From positions 10,568 through 74,567 of IMG/VR virus record IMGVR_UViG_3300031707_000008: a stretch of DNA of 64,000 bases. One strand, given 5' to 3'. The notes under the pieces were generated by a model. That model had not been told where the DNA came from, did no database searches, and saw only the letters and a program-made list of their open reading frames with translations. How positions within the stretch are numbered: the stretch's first letter is position 1; each line of letters opens with the position of its first letter. Below are positions 4,082-57,553 of this stretch, one piece after another. This stretch comes from a virus. The translations under genes were made by a program, and so were the position numbers.

Positions 4082-4090
4082 GGGGATGCG

Positions 4091-4435
4091 ATGAAAATAT
4101 TCATTGTTTGTCCGGTTCGTAAAATATCGGATTTGCTGAAATCAACAATCGAGGCAAAAATATTAGAATTAGAAAACGCAGGATATCTTGTTTATTACCC
4201 CGCTAGAGATACTGAACAGAATGATCCGACTGGATATTCCATTTGTGCAACGAATAGAGAGGCAATTCGTGATGCGGATGAAATTCTGATCGCGTGGGAT
4301 GGAAGTTCGGAGGGTGTTTTATTTGATATTGGGATGGCATTTATGATGGGGAAGGCAATTAAGATTATAGAACCATTTCCTCCAAAAACCGAGGGTAAAT
4401 CCTTCGCTTCAATGATACGGGAATGGGCAAGATGA
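4091..4435 (+). CDS. Nucleoside 2-deoxyribosyltransferase-like protein
   Basis: KIFIVCP, VYYPARD, NREAIRDAD, SEGVLFDIGMA (Asp at the usual catalytic Glu). Confidence 0.7.
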   Translation: MKIFIVCPVRKISDLLKSTIEAKILELENAGYLVYYPARDTEQNDPTGYSICATNREAIRDADEILIAWDGSSEGVLFDIGMAFMMGKAIKIIEPFPPKTEGKSFASMIREWAR

Positions 4436-4436
4436 A

Positions 4437-4528
4437 TCTCGGCTCGCGGCGGCGTGATAGCGTCGGGGATGCGATGTAGAGCACTTATTAGCGGAGCCGG
4501 TTGTAGGAGCCCGGCCCGCGAGCCGAGA
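4437..4528 (+). ncRNA. Candidate structured RNA, copy A (13-bp closing stem + two hairpins)
   Basis: tctcggctcgcgg (4437-4449) is the exact reverse complement of ccgcgagccgaga (4516-4528); hairpins cggcg/cgtcg and gccgg/ccggc; related copy at 53067-53144. Confidence 0.7.
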
Positions 4529-4542
4529 GAAAAGGAGGCGTG

Positions 4543-4719
4543 ATGGAGGAGTTGAAGAAGTGTGCTCATTGTGGAGGTGTTGCCATTTGGCGCGTTTATG
4601 ATGTATTCACAGGATGGGCACAATGCACAGAATGCGGTATATCCACCCAAACAAGCACGCGAGAAATCGTGACAGAGATATGGAACCGCCGCGTGGAGGT
4701 GAAAGATGAGCAAGACTGA
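4543..4719 (+). CDS. Lar-like (restriction alleviation family) zinc-ribbon protein, 58 aa
   Basis: Not in ORF track; MEELKKCAHCGG...CTECG...EIWNRR; AAGGAGG at 4532. Confidence 0.75.
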   Translation: MEELKKCAHCGGVAIWRVYDVFTGWAQCTECGISTQTSTREIVTEIWNRRVEVKDEQD

Positions 4720-49017: not shown

Positions 49018-49878
49018 GTGAAGTTGGCGTTTGAAGTGCCTTTAACTTGCTTGGAATTTTTTGAACCCTTAGAGGATTATGGTTTTGCTCTTTCGAAATA
49101 TGTTTTGTCGGATGCGAATTACGCAGCGTTTTTTCGTAAAAGGTCCCCCACGATTCTTGATTGTATGACGTATGAGGAAGGGGATTCTGGATCGTTCGAG
49201 TCCATTCTACAGGCAATTGACTTAATTGATCCGAGTGCAATTATCATTCCGGATACGTTGTACGAATGTGATAAGACAATCGAGAAGGGTCGAAATTTTA
49301 TTCAATTGTTAAAGAAGACGCAGTTGTGGAAAGGTCAATCATTGATTGGGGTGTTGCAAGGACGTACACCGGACGAATATATGAAGTGCTTGCACTTTTT
49401 TCGCTCGTACACGGACTTTTTCGCGTTACCTACTTCTCCTCGTATTGGGGAAGAGGCTGCCGAAGGGGTTTCACTCAAGGAACGTTTGGAGTTGCGTTCG
49501 GCTTTTCGCGCAAGAATTCTTCAACAATTAAGATTCGAGTCAGGAGAAAGTGTGCATTTGTTAGGAATAGACAACCCAATTGAGGTGAGTTTCTTCAAGG
49601 AATTTCCCTTTATTGTTTCTGCGGATACATCAAAACCGATCAAATATGGTTTTGCTGATATTATGTTTGAACCCCTACAAGGGTTACCTGAAGACGCATC
49701 ATTAAATGTTCGTAAGGATATGCTAGTTGAAGAATTGAATCGTGGGGCGCTATATCGTGCTGCTTATAACATTATCGTGATGCGTTATTGGTTGGGTGAG
49801 TCCTTTGATAGTGTGTTTGCAAAGTTATTGCGCTTGACTCGTGGGGCGTTTGTGTTTGGAAGGTCACCAGTCGCATGA
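49018..49878 (+). CDS. TGT-fold protein, candidate DNA base-exchange transglycosylase (DpdA-like)
   Basis: ILD, IIPD, GVLQG, VHLLG, SADTS in TGT order; adjacent to DNA polymerase; complete preQ0 pathway in window. Confidence 0.65.
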   Translation: MKLAFEVPLTCLEFFEPLEDYGFALSKYVLSDANYAAFFRKRSPTILDCMTYEEGDSGSFESILQAIDLIDPSAIIIPDTLYECDKTIEKGRNFIQLLKKTQLWKGQSLIGVLQGRTPDEYMKCLHFFRSYTDFFALPTSPRIGEEAAEGVSLKERLELRSAFRARILQQLRFESGESVHLLGIDNPIEVSFFKEFPFIVSADTSKPIKYGFADIMFEPLQGLPEDASLNVRKDMLVEELNRGALYRAAYNIIVMRYWLGESFDSVFAKLLRLTRGAFVFGRSPVA

Positions 49879-52382
49879 GTTTTTGTGGAAGATGCGAGTT
49901 ATGTAAGGGTTTACCCCCACAATTTCGCCATCCTACTGAAGGTGTTGGAAATCCTCATGCTGAAATAATGTTCGTAGGAGAAGCACCAGGTTATAACGAA
50001 ATGGTGCAAGGTCAACCCTTTGTGGGGAGAGCAGGGAAAGTCTTAGATAAAATGTTGTCTGTTATGGGGTTATGGCGCGCGGATGTTCGCCTTGAAAATG
50101 CAGTAAGATGCAAACCCCCCGACAATCGCGATCCGAACAAACATGAGATGGTGGCATGCAAACCCTATTTGGATGACACGATTGTGAAGTTAAAACCCAA
50201 GTTGATTGTTACTTTGGGGCACATTCCGTTGGAGACGCTTTTAGGTTTCAAGACAATTACTGCTGGTAGAGGTGTTCACAAACTCGAAGTTGAAAATCGT
50301 TCTGGTGAAAAACATGTTTGTTGGTGTTGCAGTACTTACCACCCCGCAGCCGTTTCTCGTAATTGGGGTTTGCTTGAATCAGTTTTGTGTGATATCGAAC
50401 GTTTTTTGACGTTTAAGGATCAACCAATTACTGCCTCCGTCCCGCCGTTCCAACCAATTTACCGAATTTTAACGGTGGAAGACATGGTGAAATTGGCTGC
50501 AACAACCACCGGAAGAATTTTTTCTCTCGATCTAGAAACGACAGGGTTTCATTGGAGACGCGATAAGATTTTATGCGCGGGTTTTTGTGATGTGGAGGTA
50601 TCTTTGCAAGAAATGGTTTACATTCTTCCTTTGCACGGATATGCTACTACAAAACTTTGCACAGAGTATTGGACGCCTGAAGATAAGGCAATTGTACTCG
50701 CTGCCTTCAAGAAGTTCTTGAGCAATAACCGTTTCTTTGGGCACAACATCAAGTTTGATTTTCGGTTTTTGTTAGCGCAATTGGGTGTCGAATTGGATAT
50801 TGAGTTTGACACCATGTTGGCACATCATACGTTAGATGAGAATTCACCCCACGATATTTATTATTGTGCTGCAACATATCTCGGAATCGATCGTTGGGAC
50901 AATAACTTGAAGGCTTACTTGCCAAATAGCAAAGTACCTTATAGTCGCGTTCCTAATGTGGTTTTGTGGGAGTACTTGTCGAAGGATGTTGCGTCATGCA
51001 AGTTGTTGCGTGAGGTTTTCTTGCGTCGCTTGAAAAAGGAAAATTTGCTCGATTTTTATAAAGAGTTTGTTGTCCCAATGATCACGGCCTTGGTGCATGT
51101 AGAGTCACGAGGAATTTTGCTTGATTTGAGTTTGCTTGATGTTTTGAGTGAACAACTGACAAGTGATATTGAAGATAAAACCGAACAGTTATTTAAGTTG
51201 ACGGGTAAATTCAATTACCGTTCGGTACAACAATTGCGCACAATTTTGTTCGAGCAATTGCATTTTCCTACTATTAAGAAAACGCCTACAGGCGCACCTA
51301 GTACAGACAAGGAGATTTTGGAAAGATATCAGAATTTAGACTTTTTCTGTAGTGGCGATAAGACGAGATTTCGTGAAGCAGCAAACGTTCCACGTTTGTT
51401 GCTTGAACTGAGAGGGCTCGAAAATGATTTGTCTCGCTTCAAGAGTGATGCTGGGTTGAAGGCAAGTGTTTGGGCGGATGGAAGAATTCACTCGAACTTT
51501 AACATTCATGGTACGCGTAATGGACGTTTGTCGAGTTCGGAACCCAACATTCATACATTACCTCGAGCGGGGGCTCTTGAGGGGATGGCAAGATTATTGT
51601 TTACTGCCCCCAAGGATTGGAAGATACTGGAGGCGGACTACTCCCAAGCCGAATTGAGAGTTGCTGCTTGGTTGTCACAGGATTACGCAATGTGTGAGAG
51701 TTTTAGAAACAAGAAAGATATTCATGTTCTCTCAGCGTCAGCGATGTACAACAAACCTCCTGAGGAAATCACTGACGACGAACGCTATCTTGCAAAGTTT
51801 ATCAATTTCGGTTTGTTGTACGGACGAGGTTATAAGTCACTTGCAGAACAATTTAAGGTGTCAGAACAACAAGCGCAAGAGTATATTGCACGCTACTTCA
51901 AATTGTATGAGGGTTTGAATCGGTGGATTGATGATTTACATGAGCATGCGAAGGCGTTGGGGGAATTGCGGAATGTCTTTGGAAGAAGGAGAACATTTCC
52001 TGGACACATTAGTGATGAAGAGTGGGAGTTGTCGGAAATTGAGAGGCAGGCCGTAAACTTCCCATGTGCATCAACGGTCTCGGATTGCATCACACGTTCG
52101 ACTATCATGTTAGACAAAGTTGGGAAACAACTTGGTTTGCGAGGCGGAATGACAATGAGTCTTCATGACTCAATTTTTATCGAGAGTCCGCCGGATGAAA
52201 TCCGTATATTTCTTAAACTGATCCGTTGCTTTATGTTGATACCTGTCAAAGGTGATTTTGCGATTCCCGTGGATGTGAAAATAGGTCCACGTTGGGGAGA
52301 TGCGGAAGAGAAGCATTCGTTCTCGGAAGGAGACTACATACCATGGTCGGTATTGAAGGAAGAACTCTTGCCGAGCAACTGA
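49875..52382 (+). CDS. polA: Family A DNA polymerase with N-terminal family-4 UDG domain and 3'-5' exonuclease
   Basis: CxxCxxC, VGEAPG, PFVG, YHPA; DLET, HNIKFD; GRLSS..PN, ADYSQAELR, R..AKFINFGLLYG, HDS. Confidence 0.95.
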   Translation: MSFCGRCELCKGLPPQFRHPTEGVGNPHAEIMFVGEAPGYNEMVQGQPFVGRAGKVLDKMLSVMGLWRADVRLENAVRCKPPDNRDPNKHEMVACKPYLDDTIVKLKPKLIVTLGHIPLETLLGFKTITAGRGVHKLEVENRSGEKHVCWCCSTYHPAAVSRNWGLLESVLCDIERFLTFKDQPITASVPPFQPIYRILTVEDMVKLAATTTGRIFSLDLETTGFHWRRDKILCAGFCDVEVSLQEMVYILPLHGYATTKLCTEYWTPEDKAIVLAAFKKFLSNNRFFGHNIKFDFRFLLAQLGVELDIEFDTMLAHHTLDENSPHDIYYCAATYLGIDRWDNNLKAYLPNSKVPYSRVPNVVLWEYLSKDVASCKLLREVFLRRLKKENLLDFYKEFVVPMITALVHVESRGILLDLSLLDVLSEQLTSDIEDKTEQLFKLTGKFNYRSVQQLRTILFEQLHFPTIKKTPTGAPSTDKEILERYQNLDFFCSGDKTRFREAANVPRLLLELRGLENDLSRFKSDAGLKASVWADGRIHSNFNIHGTRNGRLSSSEPNIHTLPRAGALEGMARLLFTAPKDWKILEADYSQAELRVAAWLSQDYAMCESFRNKKDIHVLSASAMYNKPPEEITDDERYLAKFINFGLLYGRGYKSLAEQFKVSEQQAQEYIARYFKLYEGLNRWIDDLHEHAKALGELRNVFGRRRTFPGHISDEEWELSEIERQAVNFPCASTVSDCITRSTIMLDKVGKQLGLRGGMTMSLHDSIFIESPPDEIRIFLKLIRCFMLIPVKGDFAIPVDVKIGPRWGDAEEKHSFSEGDYIPWSVLKEELLPSN

Positions 52383-52759
52383 ACGTACGTGCAGACGTAA
52401 AAATCTCGACGCGTGCGGAACTCGTTCACGAGTTAGCGGTTGTCCCAGCAGAATTTTATGCCGTGATTGGAGAATTGTCGGCTGCACGGCGCGCGTTGAA
52501 TCAAGCTAAACGTGACTTGAGAATATACGAGGGAGAGTCCGACTTGAAATCTCGTCGGCAACTAACTATTGGGAATTGGGCACCTTCTGATAAACAGGTG
52601 GATCGCGCAATTCAGGCAACTGTGCGTTGGCGAGAGTTGGATGAGCGATTCTCTAGTGCTCAAGAGTATACGAAGAGTCTTGAAGATTTGCGTGAGTTGT
52701 TGTTAATCAAAAAAGAGATGTTGCAATCCATTGGTGGACAATTACGTGGTGATGAGTAG
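52343..52759 (+). CDS. UvsY-like recombination mediator
   Basis: Helical ~138 aa, SDKQVDRAI...KKEMLQSIG..LR; near SSB and RecA. Confidence 0.55.
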   Translation: MVGIEGRTLAEQLNVRADVKISTRAELVHELAVVPAEFYAVIGELSAARRALNQAKRDLRIYEGESDLKSRRQLTIGNWAPSDKQVDRAIQATVRWRELDERFSSAQEYTKSLEDLRELLLIKKEMLQSIGGQLRGDE

Positions 52760-52783
52760 TTTTAACTTGTGAAGGAGGACGAG

Positions 52784-53050
52784 ATGGATAAGGCAACTAG
52801 GGCGACTCAGGTATCAGAGCAGGTGTGTGCGAATAGTTCCGTTATTGGCACGATTGAGCAACAAACAACAGAACTTTTCAAGAGGTTGAAGCCATTAATA
52901 CGTGATTGCCCTCCTCCACCCCCCTCCGGATCGGTGGACAAAGCGGAAGAAGTTTTAGTCGATCATGCCGCAACCCTAAAAGGAATGCACATGCGACTAA
53001 CGCTTATTAGTGAAACGCTCGATTCTATTATTGACCGGCTTGAATTTTAG
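52784..53050 (+). CDS. Small hypothetical protein
   Basis: AAGGAGG SD, 88 aa. Confidence 0.65.
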   Translation: MDKATRATQVSEQVCANSSVIGTIEQQTTELFKRLKPLIRDCPPPPPSGSVDKAEEVLVDHAATLKGMHMRLTLISETLDSIIDRLEF

Positions 53051-53066
53051 TAACGCAAGAAGGAAT

Positions 53067-53144
53067 TCTCGGCTTGTGGTGGTGCCACAGATGAAAACGG
53101 CATTACCTGATAGTGGCTTAACGGTAGCCGCCCGCGAGCCGAGA
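53067..53144 (+). ncRNA. Candidate structured RNA, copy B
   Basis: tctcggcttgtgg pairs with ccgcgagccgaga (two G-U); hairpins tggtgcc/ggcatta and gtggct/agccgc. Confidence 0.7.
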
Positions 53145-53159
53145 GAGAAGGAGGACGAG

Positions 53160-54050
53160 ATGGATCTCGAGAAGATTAAGAAGCGCTTCGGCGAATTGCA
53201 AACGGGGAGTTATTTCACTCCCAAGCCGGGGCAAAATCGCGTTCGTTTTTTGCCTCCCAAGGAACCGACGGATGTTTACTATCGTGAAGTATACGTCCAT
53301 TGGAACGTTGGGCCTGCTAAACAAATGGTATTGTGTTTGGCAAAGAGTCGTGGTCAAAGGTGTTTCATTTGTGAGCAGATTGCTGCGTTACGCGCAGTAA
53401 ATGATCCCGCACGCGCACCCCATTCGCAAGCACTTGCTGAAGACATGCAGGCGAATTATCGTGCGTATTACAACATCATCGATCTCGGTGGTGACGTTAG
53501 TAAACCCTTGGTGTTTTCTTCGGGTTCAACAATTTTCAAGGGGGTTATGGCATTCGTTGTGGATCCGGACTGGGGAGATGTCACGAATCCGCAGACTGGG
53601 TTCGACATGGTTATCGAGCGTCAAGGAACGGACATCAACACGGATTATACCGTTCGTGCCGTACGCGAACCATCTGCTTTAAAAGATATGTCGATTCTTG
53701 AGAAGATGCGTACGTTGGATGAAATCATCGCGGATTTCACATTTGATTACGAACAGCAAAAGGGGATTTTTGAGGGAACGGCTGGAAATACGCGCACACG
53801 CGCCGGGGCAACAGCTAGTGCGGCGCCTTTAAGTGCACCCACTAAGAGTGTGCCACCTCCAACTGCTGGCGTTTCTCAAGCATTGGGTTCACCTGTAGCG
53901 AGTACTGCATCAAATGATGAGATGAACGTGGATTGCTTCGGCAGGTTGTTCAAAGATGGTGACGAGATTTGCGATGCTTGCGGGAAGAAGGCCGAGTGCA
54001 AAGAAGTTATGTTCCCTAAACCGCAACGAAACGCGCGTGTATCGAAGTAA
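53160..54050 (+). CDS. gp32-like single-stranded DNA-binding protein
   Basis: NRVRFLPP, VHW, C..C.IC, YYNII, DVTNPQTGFD, TDY; start re-set to ATG 53160. Confidence 0.85.
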   Translation: MDLEKIKKRFGELQTGSYFTPKPGQNRVRFLPPKEPTDVYYREVYVHWNVGPAKQMVLCLAKSRGQRCFICEQIAALRAVNDPARAPHSQALAEDMQANYRAYYNIIDLGGDVSKPLVFSSGSTIFKGVMAFVVDPDWGDVTNPQTGFDMVIERQGTDINTDYTVRAVREPSALKDMSILEKMRTLDEIIADFTFDYEQQKGIFEGTAGNTRTRAGATASAAPLSAPTKSVPPPTAGVSQALGSPVASTASNDEMNVDCFGRLFKDGDEICDACGKKAECKEVMFPKPQRNARVSK

Positions 54051-54053
54051 CGT

Positions 54054-54208
54054 GTGAACAACTGGTAGGGACAGACTCGATTGAGGGTGGTTACAATGCG
54101 TAGACCACAAACGGAATATGGGCACGTTGTCGTCGGAAAGTGATACTCGGCGCATGGAAGCATCACTTGAATAACGCCAACCGGATACCGTACCGGCCAG
54201 TTGTTCAT
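54054..54208 (+). ncRNA. Candidate 155-nt multibranch structured RNA
   Basis: gtgaacaactgg/ccagttgttcat closing stem; gtggtt/gaccac, cgttgt/ataacg, aagtgat/atcactt, ccgg/ccgg. Confidence 0.6.
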
Positions 54209-55457: not shown

Positions 55458-56513
55458 ATGCGAGTGATTTGGTGCATTTTTTTCCTATTAATGATTTTGC
55501 CTTGTTTGTCTAATGCTAGAAATGCATTACTTGTTGTTGACCATACTTGTACGTATTTGAATCAAATTCCAATGCTGTGGATTGATTCAGCACAGAGTGT
55601 AATTAAATGGCATTACGCGACGACTTCTGATGGTGAGCAAATTCGATATGGACTGGACTCTCTTGAACTAGCTTTGCCTGTTTACAATGTAGAGTTGGGG
55701 AAGAAGTACTTGCCTTACGTACTCGATGCCTTAAATATCTTCTTCGGCAACGAGGGAACAACATATATCGAACCCCAACAATACTGGTCTACAACTACTG
55801 GTATGAATTTAACTCGTGCTGTCCTGCTTCACAATCCGCGGATAAATGTTTCAAGTTTTTCATGGTGTACTCAATTGTCAAGTGCAACTGAAGCATATGT
55901 TGATGCGTATCTTGATTCAATGACTGTTCTTGAGAATGAATTTCCAAACGTAACATTTGTCTACCAGACGAGTAATGCACGATCGGAAGGTGCGGCGAAG
56001 AATCGTTCCCTCAGAAACAAGCAGATTCGTGATTATTGTATTGCCAACAATAAGGTGCTTTTTGATTTTGAAGAACTCGATTGTTCTTGGTTCAACCCGG
56101 CAACACAAGAATGGGAATACTATATGATCTTGTTGAATGGTGTATATTATCCTGCACGCCATCCACAGTATTCTCTAAGTGAGGTTGTCGCACATACTAC
56201 TTGGACAAATTGTAAACAGAAGGCAAAGGCAACGTGGTGGATGATGGCATGTTTGGCCGGCTGGACCGGAACGACTACTGTGGATGTACCGCCAGTGACG
56301 CCTTCTTTGGAGATTTTTCCTAACCCATTTTCTTCTATTCTCAACATACGTGCATCTGATGAAGTAGATATTTTTGACGTAAATGGGCGCTTGGTTAATA
56401 AGATACACGCAGGTATTTGGCAGCCTGTAAATATGCAGGGTTTGGCGCTTACTTCGGGTGTTTACTATTTTAAGTGCGGAAATGTTGTGAAGAAGGGTGT
56501 TTTTCTCAAATGA
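55458..56513 (+). CDS. Secreted protein with T9SS type A C-terminal sorting domain-like tail
   Basis: Signal peptide; tail IFPNPF...IFDVNGRLV...W...G..LTSGVYY..KKGVFLK. Confidence 0.75.
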   Translation: MRVIWCIFFLLMILPCLSNARNALLVVDHTCTYLNQIPMLWIDSAQSVIKWHYATTSDGEQIRYGLDSLELALPVYNVELGKKYLPYVLDALNIFFGNEGTTYIEPQQYWSTTTGMNLTRAVLLHNPRINVSSFSWCTQLSSATEAYVDAYLDSMTVLENEFPNVTFVYQTSNARSEGAAKNRSLRNKQIRDYCIANNKVLFDFEELDCSWFNPATQEWEYYMILLNGVYYPARHPQYSLSEVVAHTTWTNCKQKAKATWWMMACLAGWTGTTTVDVPPVTPSLEIFPNPFSSILNIRASDEVDIFDVNGRLVNKIHAGIWQPVNMQGLALTSGVYYFKCGNVVKKGVFLK

Positions 56514-56524
56514 TGGGGGACAAA

Positions 56525-57553
56525 ATGGGGAAACCTGACATCAAAGCCTTAATCGCCACCATGCGGAAGGATTACAAGGACGTGGCAGTTTCTACCTTTG
56601 AAGAAGCAAACTCTGTACCATATTGGGTGAGTACACAGACTCCCTCGATTGACAAAGCAATTGGGCATGTTGGAATTCCCGGTGGAATGATTACAGCCAT
56701 CACGGGAAGAGAGTCACATGGGAAATCTGCGTTAGCAGCACACATTCTAGCAGAAGTTCAACGTATGGGGGGAATTGCTGTAATTTTCGATTCTGAAGGT
56801 GCGTACGACAAAAAGTTTGTGGGGAAGATTGGCGTGAACGTTTCGGAACTCATTTACTTTCCTGTCGTTACGGTAGAGAAGACGTTTGACGTTATTGATG
56901 GACTTATCAAACGTATTCGTGCAACTGATGAGAGTATTCCTGTAGTGATTGCATGGGACTCAGTTTCGGCTACGCCAACCGACCCCGAAGTGAATGCTAG
57001 TGCGGAAGATTATCATATTGGAATTCATGCACGTAGAATCTCACAAGGTTTGCGTAAGTTGCAAGGAAATTTATTGTCACAGAAAATTGCTTTAGTGTTG
57101 GTGAATCAACTAAAGGAAAAAATCGACTTGGCTTTTGGTTCTGGGACGACGTTTATGGGTGAACATCCTATCAGTTTTCACGCACAGTTGATTCTTGAGG
57201 TAAGACGCATGCAAATTATACGTCGCGACCAAGACAAAGAACCTTTGGGGATTCAATGTGTTGCTACTGTGCAAAAGAATCGTTTAGCTCCTCCTTTCCA
57301 GAAAGCGCAGTTCCGGATTTTGTTTGATAGGGGCATAGATAAAGTTGACTCTTTGATTTGTGCCGCGGAGGAATTTGGTTTAGCAATTGCGTTGGGTGGG
57401 GGTTGGTATTCATTTCAAAACGAGAAGTTCTCGCGAAAGATGACGACGTCAGAGGCGATTTTTGTAAAGTTGTTGGAAGTCGTAAATGCGCGAATCGTTT
57501 CTGGCCCGCCTTTTACGAATGACACACCACCGGTTGTTGTAGAGAAAGCATAA
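56525..57553 (+). CDS. recA: RecA/UvsX recombinase
   Basis: GIPGG, GRESHGKS, FDSE, WDSV, ARRISQGLRKL, VNQL, KNRLAPPF. Confidence 0.95.
   Translation: MGKPDIKALIATMRKDYKDVAVSTFEEANSVPYWVSTQTPSIDKAIGHVGIPGGMITAITGRESHGKSALAAHILAEVQRMGGIAVIFDSEGAYDKKFVGKIGVNVSELIYFPVVTVEKTFDVIDGLIKRIRATDESIPVVIAWDSVSATPTDPEVNASAEDYHIGIHARRISQGLRKLQGNLLSQKIALVLVNQLKEKIDLAFGSGTTFMGEHPISFHAQLILEVRRMQIIRRDQDKEPLGIQCVATVQKNRLAPPFQKAQFRILFDRGIDKVDSLICAAEEFGLAIALGGGWYSFQNEKFSRKMTTSEAIFVKLLEVVNARIVSGPPFTNDTPPVVVEKA

What the first reader, a model, noticed from the sequence alone, without database searches (positions are those of the whole stretch)
52771..53165. Gene + structured element bracketed by a 19-nt duplication of the SSB translation start: cassette-like insertion
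Seen: gaaggaggacgagatggat occurs exactly at 52771-52789 and 53147-53165. Between the copies lie one 88-aa orphan ORF and RNA element B. Removing one repeat plus the interval would leave the UvsY-like gene joined to SSB with an intact SD-ATG. Inference: a target-site duplication or crossover footprint of a gene-plus-hairpin cassette that inserts at RBS-ATG junctions, so both cargo and target stay expressed. This is integron-cassette-like in logic, but no integrase is visible; the phage RecA/UvsY/SSB set could supply microhomology recombination.
Basis: partly seen in the sequence, partly recalled or inferred. Interest (0 to 1): 0.78.

Follow-up and report, generated by a model that had tools for sequence, protein, structure and literature searches.

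The report
Duplicated translation start flanking phage ORFan
In an uncultured phage, a small orphan gene and a folded RNA leader lie between two identical 19-base ribosome-site/start-codon copies just before the SSB gene; this looks like a short-homology gene-shuffling joint of a kind known from T4-type phages, but no close relative exists to prove it.

Summary
GAAGGAGGACGAGATGGAT occurs exactly twice, at 52771-52789 and 53147-53165, each as the full ribosome site, ATG and codon 2 of adjacent genes: ORF88 and a gp32-like SSB. It is not a common RBS. Among 4,851 pairs of start-aligned windows in this phage the next longest shared run is 11 nt.

ORF88 looks like a real gene (native codon usage, confident helical hairpin) and is a complete orphan. 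Element B is a GC-rich branched hairpin with a 13-bp closing stem and has one sister, element A at 4437-4528.

The mobility reading could not be tested directly. No close relative exists in any collection searched; the best non-self SSB is about 40% identical. Distant syntenic phages show the slot is variable:
- mediator-like gene directly next to SSB;
- a tRNA in the slot;
- another small ORF in the slot.

No integrase, resolvase, attC-type core sites, promoter, terminator or terminal inverted repeats were found. A RecA-type recombinase is present. Element A lacks the same flanking duplication.

My best reading (about 0.4) is a short start-associated linker that served as a homologous-recombination joint, like PeSL cassettes. 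A purely regulatory duplication, like mycobacteriophage SAS/ESAS, is the main rival. This scan has reported PeSL-type repeat-flanked ORFans on other phage DNA before. Interest is modest.

The parts
52343..52759 (+).
   Evidence: ORF. phrog_1069, unknown function, E 9.5e-07. No Pfam hit, including UvsY PF11056. Low-confidence helical model with no PDB match. Same PHROG family sits upstream of SSB in relatives L004 and L008.
52771..52789 (+). 19-mer copy 1: complete translation initiation region of ORF88 (SD GGAGG 52774-52778, ATG 52784, GAT)
   Evidence: Exact match; sequence; outlier among start windows.
52784..53050 (+). ORF88, an orphan 88-aa protein: two long helices joined by a CPPPPPSG linker
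   Evidence: In-frame codon score 0.22 against 0.30 +/- 0.09 for genes and about -0.6 off-frame. AF2 helical hairpin, pLDDT 87. Only itself among 5.8 billion protein clusters. No Pfam or PHROG family. GC like its neighbours.
53067..53144 (+). RNA element B: 13-bp closing stem enclosing two hairpins, ending 5 nt before the SSB SD
   Evidence: Fold -39.3 kcal/mol, z -2.6. Stem arms located. Among the most stable intergenic folds per nt, with element A. No Rfam family. No T-run, so not an intrinsic terminator.
53147..53165 (+). 19-mer copy 2: translation initiation region of the SSB gene
   Evidence: Exact match. The start at 53160 aligns with the N-terminus of the homologue P0002.
53160..54050 (+). 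gp32-like single-stranded DNA-binding protein
   Evidence: PF08804 gp32, 32.1 bits, above cut-off. phrog_1192 SSB, E 4e-29. 2,589 relatives, best non-self 39-41% identical.
54054..54208 (+). Element C: a second multibranch structure with a 13-bp closing stem, directly after the SSB stop and about 20 nt before the next gene's start region
   Evidence: Fold -55.6 kcal/mol, z -2.1; intergenic fold list.
4437..4548 (+). Element A plus its tail: same 13-bp closing stem as B with a different interior, followed by AAGGAGGCGTGATGGAG, the start of a Lar-like gene
   Evidence: 25-nt repeat, 24/25 identical to B. Sequence and fold. Lar family PF14354.
56510..57553 (+). RecA/UvsX-type recombinase, the candidate enzyme for short-homology exchange
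   Evidence: PF00154 RecA, E 1.2e-48. phrog_97 UvsX-like, E 3e-56.

Best explanation
The 19-mer is a complete translation initiation region: a purine-rich strong SD, a 5-nt spacer, ATG and codon 2. It belongs to a small family of start-associated sequences in this phage, AGGAGG(A)CG(A/T)G..ATG, found at four gene starts.

I read the two identical copies as the joint left when a promoterless module was recombined in between the mediator-like gene and the SSB gene. The module is ORF88 plus the structured leader, element B. Recombination would have been homologous, across this short shared start sequence, and catalysed by the phage's own RecA/SSB/nuclease machinery. Because the crossover lies in the SD-ATG itself, both the incoming gene and SSB keep a full start signal. 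The reverse exchange would delete exactly 376 bp and release a 376-bp circle.

Element B itself most likely acts in RNA, not as a recombination site. Together with element C it brackets the SSB cistron. It is probably a processing or stability structure that lets SSB be expressed at a different level from the polymerase genes upstream.

Shown: the anatomy, the non-randomness, the gene-likeness and orphan status of ORF88, the recombinase, and slot variability in distant relatives. Inferred: the recombination event, its direction, and the RNA role.
For: - Exact 19/19 repeat with sharp edges, unique in the genome. It is far beyond other start-site similarities, the next being 11 nt, and beyond Markov expectation.
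- No residual similarity between the interval and its flanks, so it is not a decayed tandem duplication.
- ORF88 is an orphan with native codon usage and a confident fold, the typical cargo of phage shuffling.
- All four AGGAGG(N)CG sites in the record are gene starts, and the tails of elements A and B are related through the ATG. A shared linker family is therefore plausible.
- A RecA-type recombinase, an SbcCD-like nuclease, an exonuclease and a gp32-like SSB are encoded.
- In distant syntenic relatives the slot before SSB is empty, holds a tRNA, or holds an unrelated small ORF.
- Precedent: in RB49/phi1, ORFans flanked by repeated regulatory motifs are deleted, inserted and circularised. 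The mapped crossovers lie between the SD or ATG and the -10 box, and no dedicated recombinase is involved (PMC2839356; PMC4122927).
- RNA role of B and C: two C-to-T changes in B's stem keep G-U pairs on the sense strand only. Both elements end just before an SD and lack T-runs, while true terminators elsewhere in the phage do have T-runs.
Against: - There is only one such repeat pair, and no relative close enough to show an indel. The event is therefore unobserved.
- The repeat is much shorter than PeSLs and has no promoter. The locus is in the core replication module, not a recognised hyperplastic region.
- Homologous insertion needs donor and recipient to have shared the same 19-mer beforehand. 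That rests on a weakly supported motif family: 2 perfect and 2 partial copies.
- ORF88's composition is indistinguishable from its neighbours, so nothing marks it as recently foreign.
- Element A, the only sister of B, is not bracketed in the same way.
- The RNA-processing role is pure inference from two or three structures without covariation statistics.
Confidence: 0.4

Rival explanations
1. Regulatory duplication without mobility. The identical start regions are kept by selection so that ORF88 and SSB are translated at the same efficiency, or are controlled by the same factor binding the SD-ATG region (a translational repressor, or SSB itself as with T4 gp32). This would resemble the start-associated sequences (SAS) and extended SAS of Cluster K mycobacteriophages.
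For: - SAS are 13-bp asymmetric repeats containing the SD core, 3-7 bp before start codons. About half of them carry inverted repeats immediately upstream (ESAS) (PMC3203893).
- Here the SD core lies 5 nt before the ATG. Two of the four related starts (the Lar-like gene and SSB) are preceded by a 13-bp inverted repeat, elements A and B.
- The SSB is gp32-like, and T4 gp32 autoregulates translation through its leader (established knowledge).
- In the MFE fold the CCUCC motifs of ORF88's proline tract pair with both SD copies.
Against: - There are only 2 perfect copies, against 10-19 per genome for SAS.
- Operators are rarely identical over 19 nt including spacer and codon 2.
- No RegA-like gene was found.
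- None of 80 other gp32-like SSB loci has a comparable duplicated start or structured leader, so it is not a general feature of SSB autoregulation.
- The SD/anti-SD pairing is trivial for any C-rich tract, and that MFE structure has a frequency of 0.0001.
Confidence: 0.27
2. Target-site duplication or site-specific cassette insertion: a transposase, casposase-like or integron-integrase type enzyme made a staggered cut or recombined at a specific site, duplicating 19 bp.
For: A direct repeat immediately flanks a discrete insert. Element B sits 3' of the ORF, where an attC would sit, and like attC it has conserved inverted ends with a variable centre.
Against: - No tyrosine or serine recombinase in the record, though the record is only about 52% complete.
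- The insert ends (AAGGCAAC... and ...GCCGAGAGA) are not inverted repeats.
- The element ends TCTCGGC/GCCGAGA are not RYYYAAC/GTTRRRY.
- 19 bp is longer than usual target-site duplications.
- The 19-mer is not an element end elsewhere. The only 2 hits in 2.9 million viral contigs are unrelated contexts.
- The stem pattern gave nothing in viral contigs and only chance-level GC-rich palindromes in bacterial genomes.
Confidence: 0.04
3. Chance convergence of two strong ribosome-binding sites.
For: SD and ATG (about 10-12 of the 19 positions) are constrained in any strongly expressed gene. The phage often uses AAGGAGG: 15 copies on the + strand.
Against: - The remaining 7-9 free positions also match.
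- The next best pair among 4,851 shares 11 nt.
- 0 of 100 shuffles gave two copies, and the Markov maximum was 17 nt in 200 simulations.
- The two copies belong to adjacent genes.
Confidence: 0.05

Closest known systems
PeSL (promoter-early stem-loop) cassettes of T4-type phages (Arbiol et al. 2010, PMC2839356; Comeau et al. 2014, PMC4122927)
   Same: An ORFan is bracketed by direct repeats of a regulatory sequence next to a stem-loop. Exchange between the repeats would delete the gene or release it as a mini-circle. No dedicated recombinase is needed, only the phage's own recombination system. Mapped PeSL crossovers lie between the SD or ATG and the -10 box. The authors themselves compare the logic with integrons.
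   Different: The repeat here is only 19 nt and is purely a translation start, with no sigma70-type promoter. The stem-loop is a large branched structure without terminator features and is present at one copy only. There are two copies rather than dozens. The locus is inside the replication core. The phage is not shown to be T4-type (family A polymerase fused to UDG). No indel or circle has been observed.
Start-associated sequences (SAS) and extended SAS of Cluster K mycobacteriophages (Pope et al. 2011, PMC3203893)
   Same: A short asymmetric repeat contains the SD core a few bases before start codons of non-structural genes. A subset is preceded by an inverted repeat with a variable spacer. 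The function is unknown but is thought to concern translation initiation.
   Different: SAS is 13 bp, with 10-19 copies per genome, conserved across subclusters. ESAS spacers are 4-13 bp and their arms do not support RNA pairing. Here there are 2 perfect and 2 partial copies, the spacers are 52-66 nt, and the arm changes keep G-U pairing.
Phage morons (as discussed in PMC2839356)
   Same: A small extra gene of unknown function is inserted between two conserved genes.
   Different: Morons carry their own promoter and terminator and lack conserved flanking repeats. Here no promoter or terminator was found, and a perfect flanking repeat is present.
Integron gene cassettes
   Same: A promoterless ORF is followed by a structured inverted-repeat element with a variable centre, and insertion preserves expression of the neighbours.
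   Different: There is no IntI, no attC core sites, no attI/Pc and no array. The repeat is a ribosome site, not a 7-bp core site.

Membership tests
Integron gene cassette | IntI-type tyrosine recombinase nearby | tested here: not met
   PF00589 search of the whole 74.6-kb record gave 0 matches, while all 14 control genomes matched. Caveat: the record is about 52% complete.
Integron gene cassette | attC with RYYYAAC / GTTRRRY core sites at the cassette boundary | tested here: not met
   The element B arms are TCTCGGCTTGTGG / CCGCGAGCCGAGA. There is no GTTRRRY at the 3' boundary.
PeSL cassette (T4-type phages) | Repeat contains a strong sigma70-like early promoter | tested here: not met
   No promoter-like site at 52700-53165 in the consensus scan. 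No TTGA-N18-20-TATAAT anywhere in the window.
PeSL cassette (T4-type phages) | Stem-loop (terminator/attenuator) adjacent to each repeat | tested here: not met
   Only the downstream copy is preceded by a structure, element B. That structure lacks a T-run. Copy 1 follows an 11-nt unstructured spacer.
PeSL cassette (T4-type phages) | ORFan bracketed by direct repeats of the motif | tested here: met
PeSL cassette (T4-type phages) | Indels of the bracketed gene among close relatives, or mini-circles | not testable with these tools
   No close relative in phages, IMG/VR, JGI metagenomes or 15 billion proteins.
SAS / ESAS (Cluster K mycobacteriophages) | Asymmetric repeat with SD core 3-7 bp before start codons | tested here: met
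   GGAGG lies 5 nt before the ATG at both copies. All four AGGAGG(N)CG sites are gene starts on the + strand.
SAS / ESAS (Cluster K mycobacteriophages) | Many copies per genome (10 or more), conserved across related phages | tested here: not met
   2 perfect and 2 partial copies in 74.6 kb. Conservation across relatives is not testable.
Transposable element with target-site duplication | Terminal inverted repeats at the insert ends and a transposase | tested here: not met
   The insert ends are not inverted repeats. No recombinase was found. ORF88 is a two-helix protein.
Moron | Own promoter and terminator | tested here: not met
UvsY recombination mediator (label given to the upstream gene) | Match to the UvsY family or fold | tested here: inconclusive
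   No PF11056 match at E <= 1. No PDB sequence or fold match; the model is weak, pLDDT 62. The only link is phrog_1069, one member of which (in L008) also hits UvsY-like phrog_231 at E 0.0057.

The most novel reading that the evidence does not exclude
A start-codon-targeted gene cassette system in a phage lineage unrelated to T4. Small promoterless ORFs, each trailed by a branched RNA element of the A/B type, would move between SD-ATG junctions by RecA-mediated exchange across a shared start-associated sequence, so cargo and target are both expressed on arrival. The hint of a second case is the 12-nt RBS+ATG of the gene before element A, which recurs inside element A. That would make it a family rather than a one-off.
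Probability: 0.12. Interest if true: 0.7.

Novelty: new variant of a known kind. Interest (0 to 1): 0.35.

Why it matters
If the 19-mer is a recombination joint, repeat-mediated ORFan shuffling is not confined to T4-type phages. It would then need neither promoter-sized repeats nor a dedicated recombinase: a bare ribosome site plus start codon would be enough homology. That would help explain how orphan genes enter even the core replication modules of phages without disturbing expression.

If instead the identity is regulatory, it would be a second example, after mycobacteriophage SAS/ESAS, of start-associated control sequences whose mechanism is still unknown.

Either way the locus gives a clean, testable pair of predicted junctions.

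Tried and rejected
- **Close relatives and empty-site alleles.** I searched blastn against 50,697 phage records, protein-seeded scans of IMG/VR with SSB and ORF88, exact element and 19-mer patterns in IMG/VR, JGI metagenomes with SSB, and 5.8 billion and 1.84 billion protein sets. Exact cluster look-up showed all three proteins are singletons.
- **19-mer hits in IMG/VR.** The two hits (L001, L002) are unrelated: a thyX-like start in a high-GC contig, and a site inside a coding region.
- **Decayed tandem duplication.** Rejected; the interval has no similarity to its flanks.
- **ORF88 paralogues in the genome.** None.
- **Known RNA families for elements A and B.** None at gathering or permissive thresholds. 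They are not tRNAs. No hammerhead-type core was seen by eye.
- **Stem pattern in bacterial genomes.** Five hits, all long GC-rich palindromes in Acetobacteraceae and others, at about the number expected by chance, with no Rfam family. Judged unrelated.
- **Foreign composition of ORF88.** Rejected.
- **SSB loci in general.** 80 loci checked for duplicated starts; none found.
- **UvsY identity of the upstream gene.** Not established.
- **Atlas look-alikes of ORF88.** Only unnamed viral clusters at about 0.9.
- **Assembly artefact.** Unlikely. The repeat is shorter than the k-mers assemblers normally use (my own knowledge, not tested here), and the same ORF88 and SSB proteins are on record from JGI/IMG, ENA and Logan.

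Full report
**What is there.** The window is part of a single 74,567-bp virus record (window = bases 10568-74567). It is classed as linear and about 52% complete. Almost all genes are on the + strand and tightly packed.

The finding lies in the replication and recombination module:
- a family A DNA polymerase fused to a UDG domain (49875-52382);
- a 138-aa helical protein (52343-52759; phrog_1069, function unknown);
- ORF88 (52784-53050);
- a 109-nt intergenic region holding element B;
- a gp32-like SSB (53160-54050; PF08804 and phrog_1192).

Further along are a protein with a T9SS sorting domain and a RecA-type recombinase (56510-57553; PF00154, E 1e-48). Upstream are helicase, primase, an SbcCD-like nuclease and an exonuclease.

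**The observation.** GAAGGAGGACGAGATGGAT occurs exactly at 52771-52789 and 53147-53165 and nowhere else in the window or the record, even with three mismatches. Each copy is a whole translation start: GGAGG, a five-base spacer, ATG, then GAT. The SSB start at 53160 is the true one, because it aligns with residue 4 of the nearest homologue. The public gene call that starts 23 codons earlier, inside element B, is probably wrong.

**Is it just a strong RBS?** No.
- About 90 SD-plus-start sites in the record have diverse spacers, and the common extended form is AGGAGGTG.
- When all 4,851 pairs of predicted start windows are aligned at the start codon, the longest shared run after this pair is 11 nt.
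- For direct repeats within 600 nt, 200 Markov-simulated genomes never exceeded 17 nt.
- Identity stops abruptly on both sides. The 357 nt between the copies show no similarity to the SSB gene, the upstream genes or the downstream DNA beyond shuffled controls. This rules out a decayed tandem duplication.

**The cargo.** ORF88 scores like a real gene of this phage: 0.22 in frame, against 0.30 +/- 0.09 for 264-nt pieces of long genes and about -0.6 off frame. It folds confidently as two long helices joined by a CPPPPPSG linker (pLDDT 87). It has no Pfam or PHROG family and no relative among 5.8 billion protein clusters. Its GC and GC3 match its neighbours.

Element B (53067-53144) has a 13-bp closing stem around two hairpins (-39.3 kcal/mol, z -2.6). 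It has one sister, element A (4437-4528), with the same stem, a different interior and a related tail, AAGGAGG-CGTGATGGAG, in front of a Lar-like gene.
- The two stem differences in B are C-to-T changes that keep G-U pairs on the sense strand only. This mildly favours an RNA role.
- With only two sequences, covariation carries no statistical weight.
- A and B are among the most stable intergenic folds per nucleotide.
- Neither has a T-run, whereas real hairpin-plus-T-run terminators exist elsewhere in the phage.
- No Rfam family matches.
- A third, unrelated multibranch structure with a 13-bp closing stem, element C (54054-54208), follows the SSB stop. The SSB cistron is therefore bracketed by long-stem structures that each end just before a ribosome site.

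I infer that these are RNA processing or stability elements. RNase III-type sites between phage genes are the obvious model (this is from my own knowledge, not tested here). Such elements would let SSB be expressed independently of the polymerase genes.

No close relative could be found by any of these searches:
- blastn against phage records;
- IMG/VR protein-seeded and pattern scans;
- JGI metagenomes;
- two very large protein sets;
- exact cluster look-ups, which show the three proteins of the locus are singletons.

Nucleotide-level empty-site or alternative-cargo alleles therefore cannot be shown or excluded.

At long range, eight IMG/VR loci keep the order PolA(UDG)...SSB. Seven were inspected (L011 gave BLAST coordinates identical to L010 and was not examined separately); they fall into four arrangements:
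- In L004, L006 and L007 a phrog_1069 protein is followed after 36 nt by SSB.
- In L008 a phrog_1069 protein is followed by a tRNA and then SSB.
- In L010 an unrelated 72-89 aa ORF sits in the slot.
- In L003 a 56-aa zinc-ribbon protein replaces everything.

So the slot is variable and an 'empty' order exists, but at this distance that is ordinary phage mosaicism. None of these relatives has a structured leader before SSB. None of 80 SSB loci has a duplicated start.

**Second cassette?** Element A is not bracketed by a duplicated start of the same geometry. The start region of the gene before it (GGGGATGCGATG) differs from that of the gene after it.
- Genome-wide, local 12-mers are near chance: 9 observed in the window against about 3.4 expected.
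- A copy of exactly the upstream gene's start in the 107-nt spacer has a prior chance of roughly 1e-4 (my calculation).
- It remains an unexplained hint rather than a replicate.

**Enzymes and signatures of site-specific mobility.**
- No tyrosine or serine recombinase in the record.
- No attC-type core sites, and no inverted repeats at the insert ends.
- No promoter or terminator in the interval.
- The 19-mer is not an element end elsewhere.
- The stem pattern occurs in bacterial genomes only as chance-level GC-rich palindromes.

Integron, transposon and moron readings therefore fail their defining features.

**Comparison with known systems.** The nearest precedent is PeSL-mediated modular shuffling in T4-type phages. 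There, ORFans flanked by repeated regulatory motifs are deleted, inserted and released as mini-circles by the phage's own recombination system. Mapped crossovers lie between the SD or ATG and the -10 box, and only short patches of homology are needed (PMC2839356; PMC4122927).

This locus shares the logic but not the defining features. It has no promoter, a 19-nt repeat, two copies, a core-module location and a non-T4 polymerase.

The main rival is a purely regulatory repeat like the SAS/ESAS of Cluster K mycobacteriophages: 13-bp SD-containing repeats 3-7 bp before starts, half of them preceded by inverted repeats (PMC3203893). In favour of the rival, all four AGGAGG(N)CG sites in the record are gene starts, and two of them follow the A/B inverted repeat. 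Against it:
- the copy number is very low;
- the identity is perfect, extending through spacer and codon 2;
- there is no RegA-like gene;
- no similar feature appears at other SSB loci.

The two readings are compatible. A start-associated motif family could serve both as a control sequence and as a recombination linker, exactly as PeSLs do.

**Verdict.** My best explanation is a short-homology recombination joint at a start-associated sequence, with element B as an RNA leader (confidence about 0.4).

This scan has already reported several PeSL-type repeat-flanked ORFans in T4-type phages. This case is a shorter, promoter-less variant in an isolated uncultured phage lineage. Interest is modest (0.35) unless reads or relatives reveal the predicted junctions.

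Noticed in passing
window 4082-4093 and 4465-4476: The 12-nt RBS+ATG of the deoxyribosyltransferase-like gene (GGGGATGCGATG) recurs inside element A, where the ATG is followed at once by TAG. Local 12-mers are near chance genome-wide, but this placement is specific.
   Followed up: partly
window 54054-54208: Element C is a 155-nt multibranch structure with a 13-bp closing stem, right after the SSB stop and about 20 nt before the next gene's start region. With element B it brackets the SSB cistron.
   Followed up: partly
window 52909-52927: ORF88's CPPPPPS codons form a C-rich tract with three CCTCC anti-SD motifs. In the MFE fold they pair with both copies of the SD. The five consecutive prolines could also stall ribosomes.
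   Followed up: partly
window 4533, 48720, 52773, 53149: All four occurrences of AGGAGG(N)CG in the 74.6-kb record are gene starts (Lar-like gene, a 62-aa ORF, ORF88, SSB). This may be a small start-associated sequence family.
   Followed up: partly
window 53091-53159: An ATG inside element B is in frame with SSB. A public gene call uses it to give a 319-aa protein. Alignment with homologues supports the start at 53160 instead.
   Followed up: yes
window 55458-56513: A phage protein carries a T9SS C-terminal sorting domain (PF18962, above cut-off). This hints at a host in the Bacteroidota/FCB group, yet the phage uses strong Shine-Dalgarno sites.
   Followed up: no
L008:3599-3687: In a distant syntenic relative, an unusually long (89-nt) predicted tRNA-Glu occupies the slot between the phrog_1069 gene and SSB.
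   Followed up: no
L084:6689-6771, L087:910-992, L088:1652-1734: Acidisphaera and Rhodopila genomes share a conserved ~85-nt long-armed palindromic element with conserved flanks and no Rfam family. It was picked up only because its outer arms match the search pattern.
   Followed up: no
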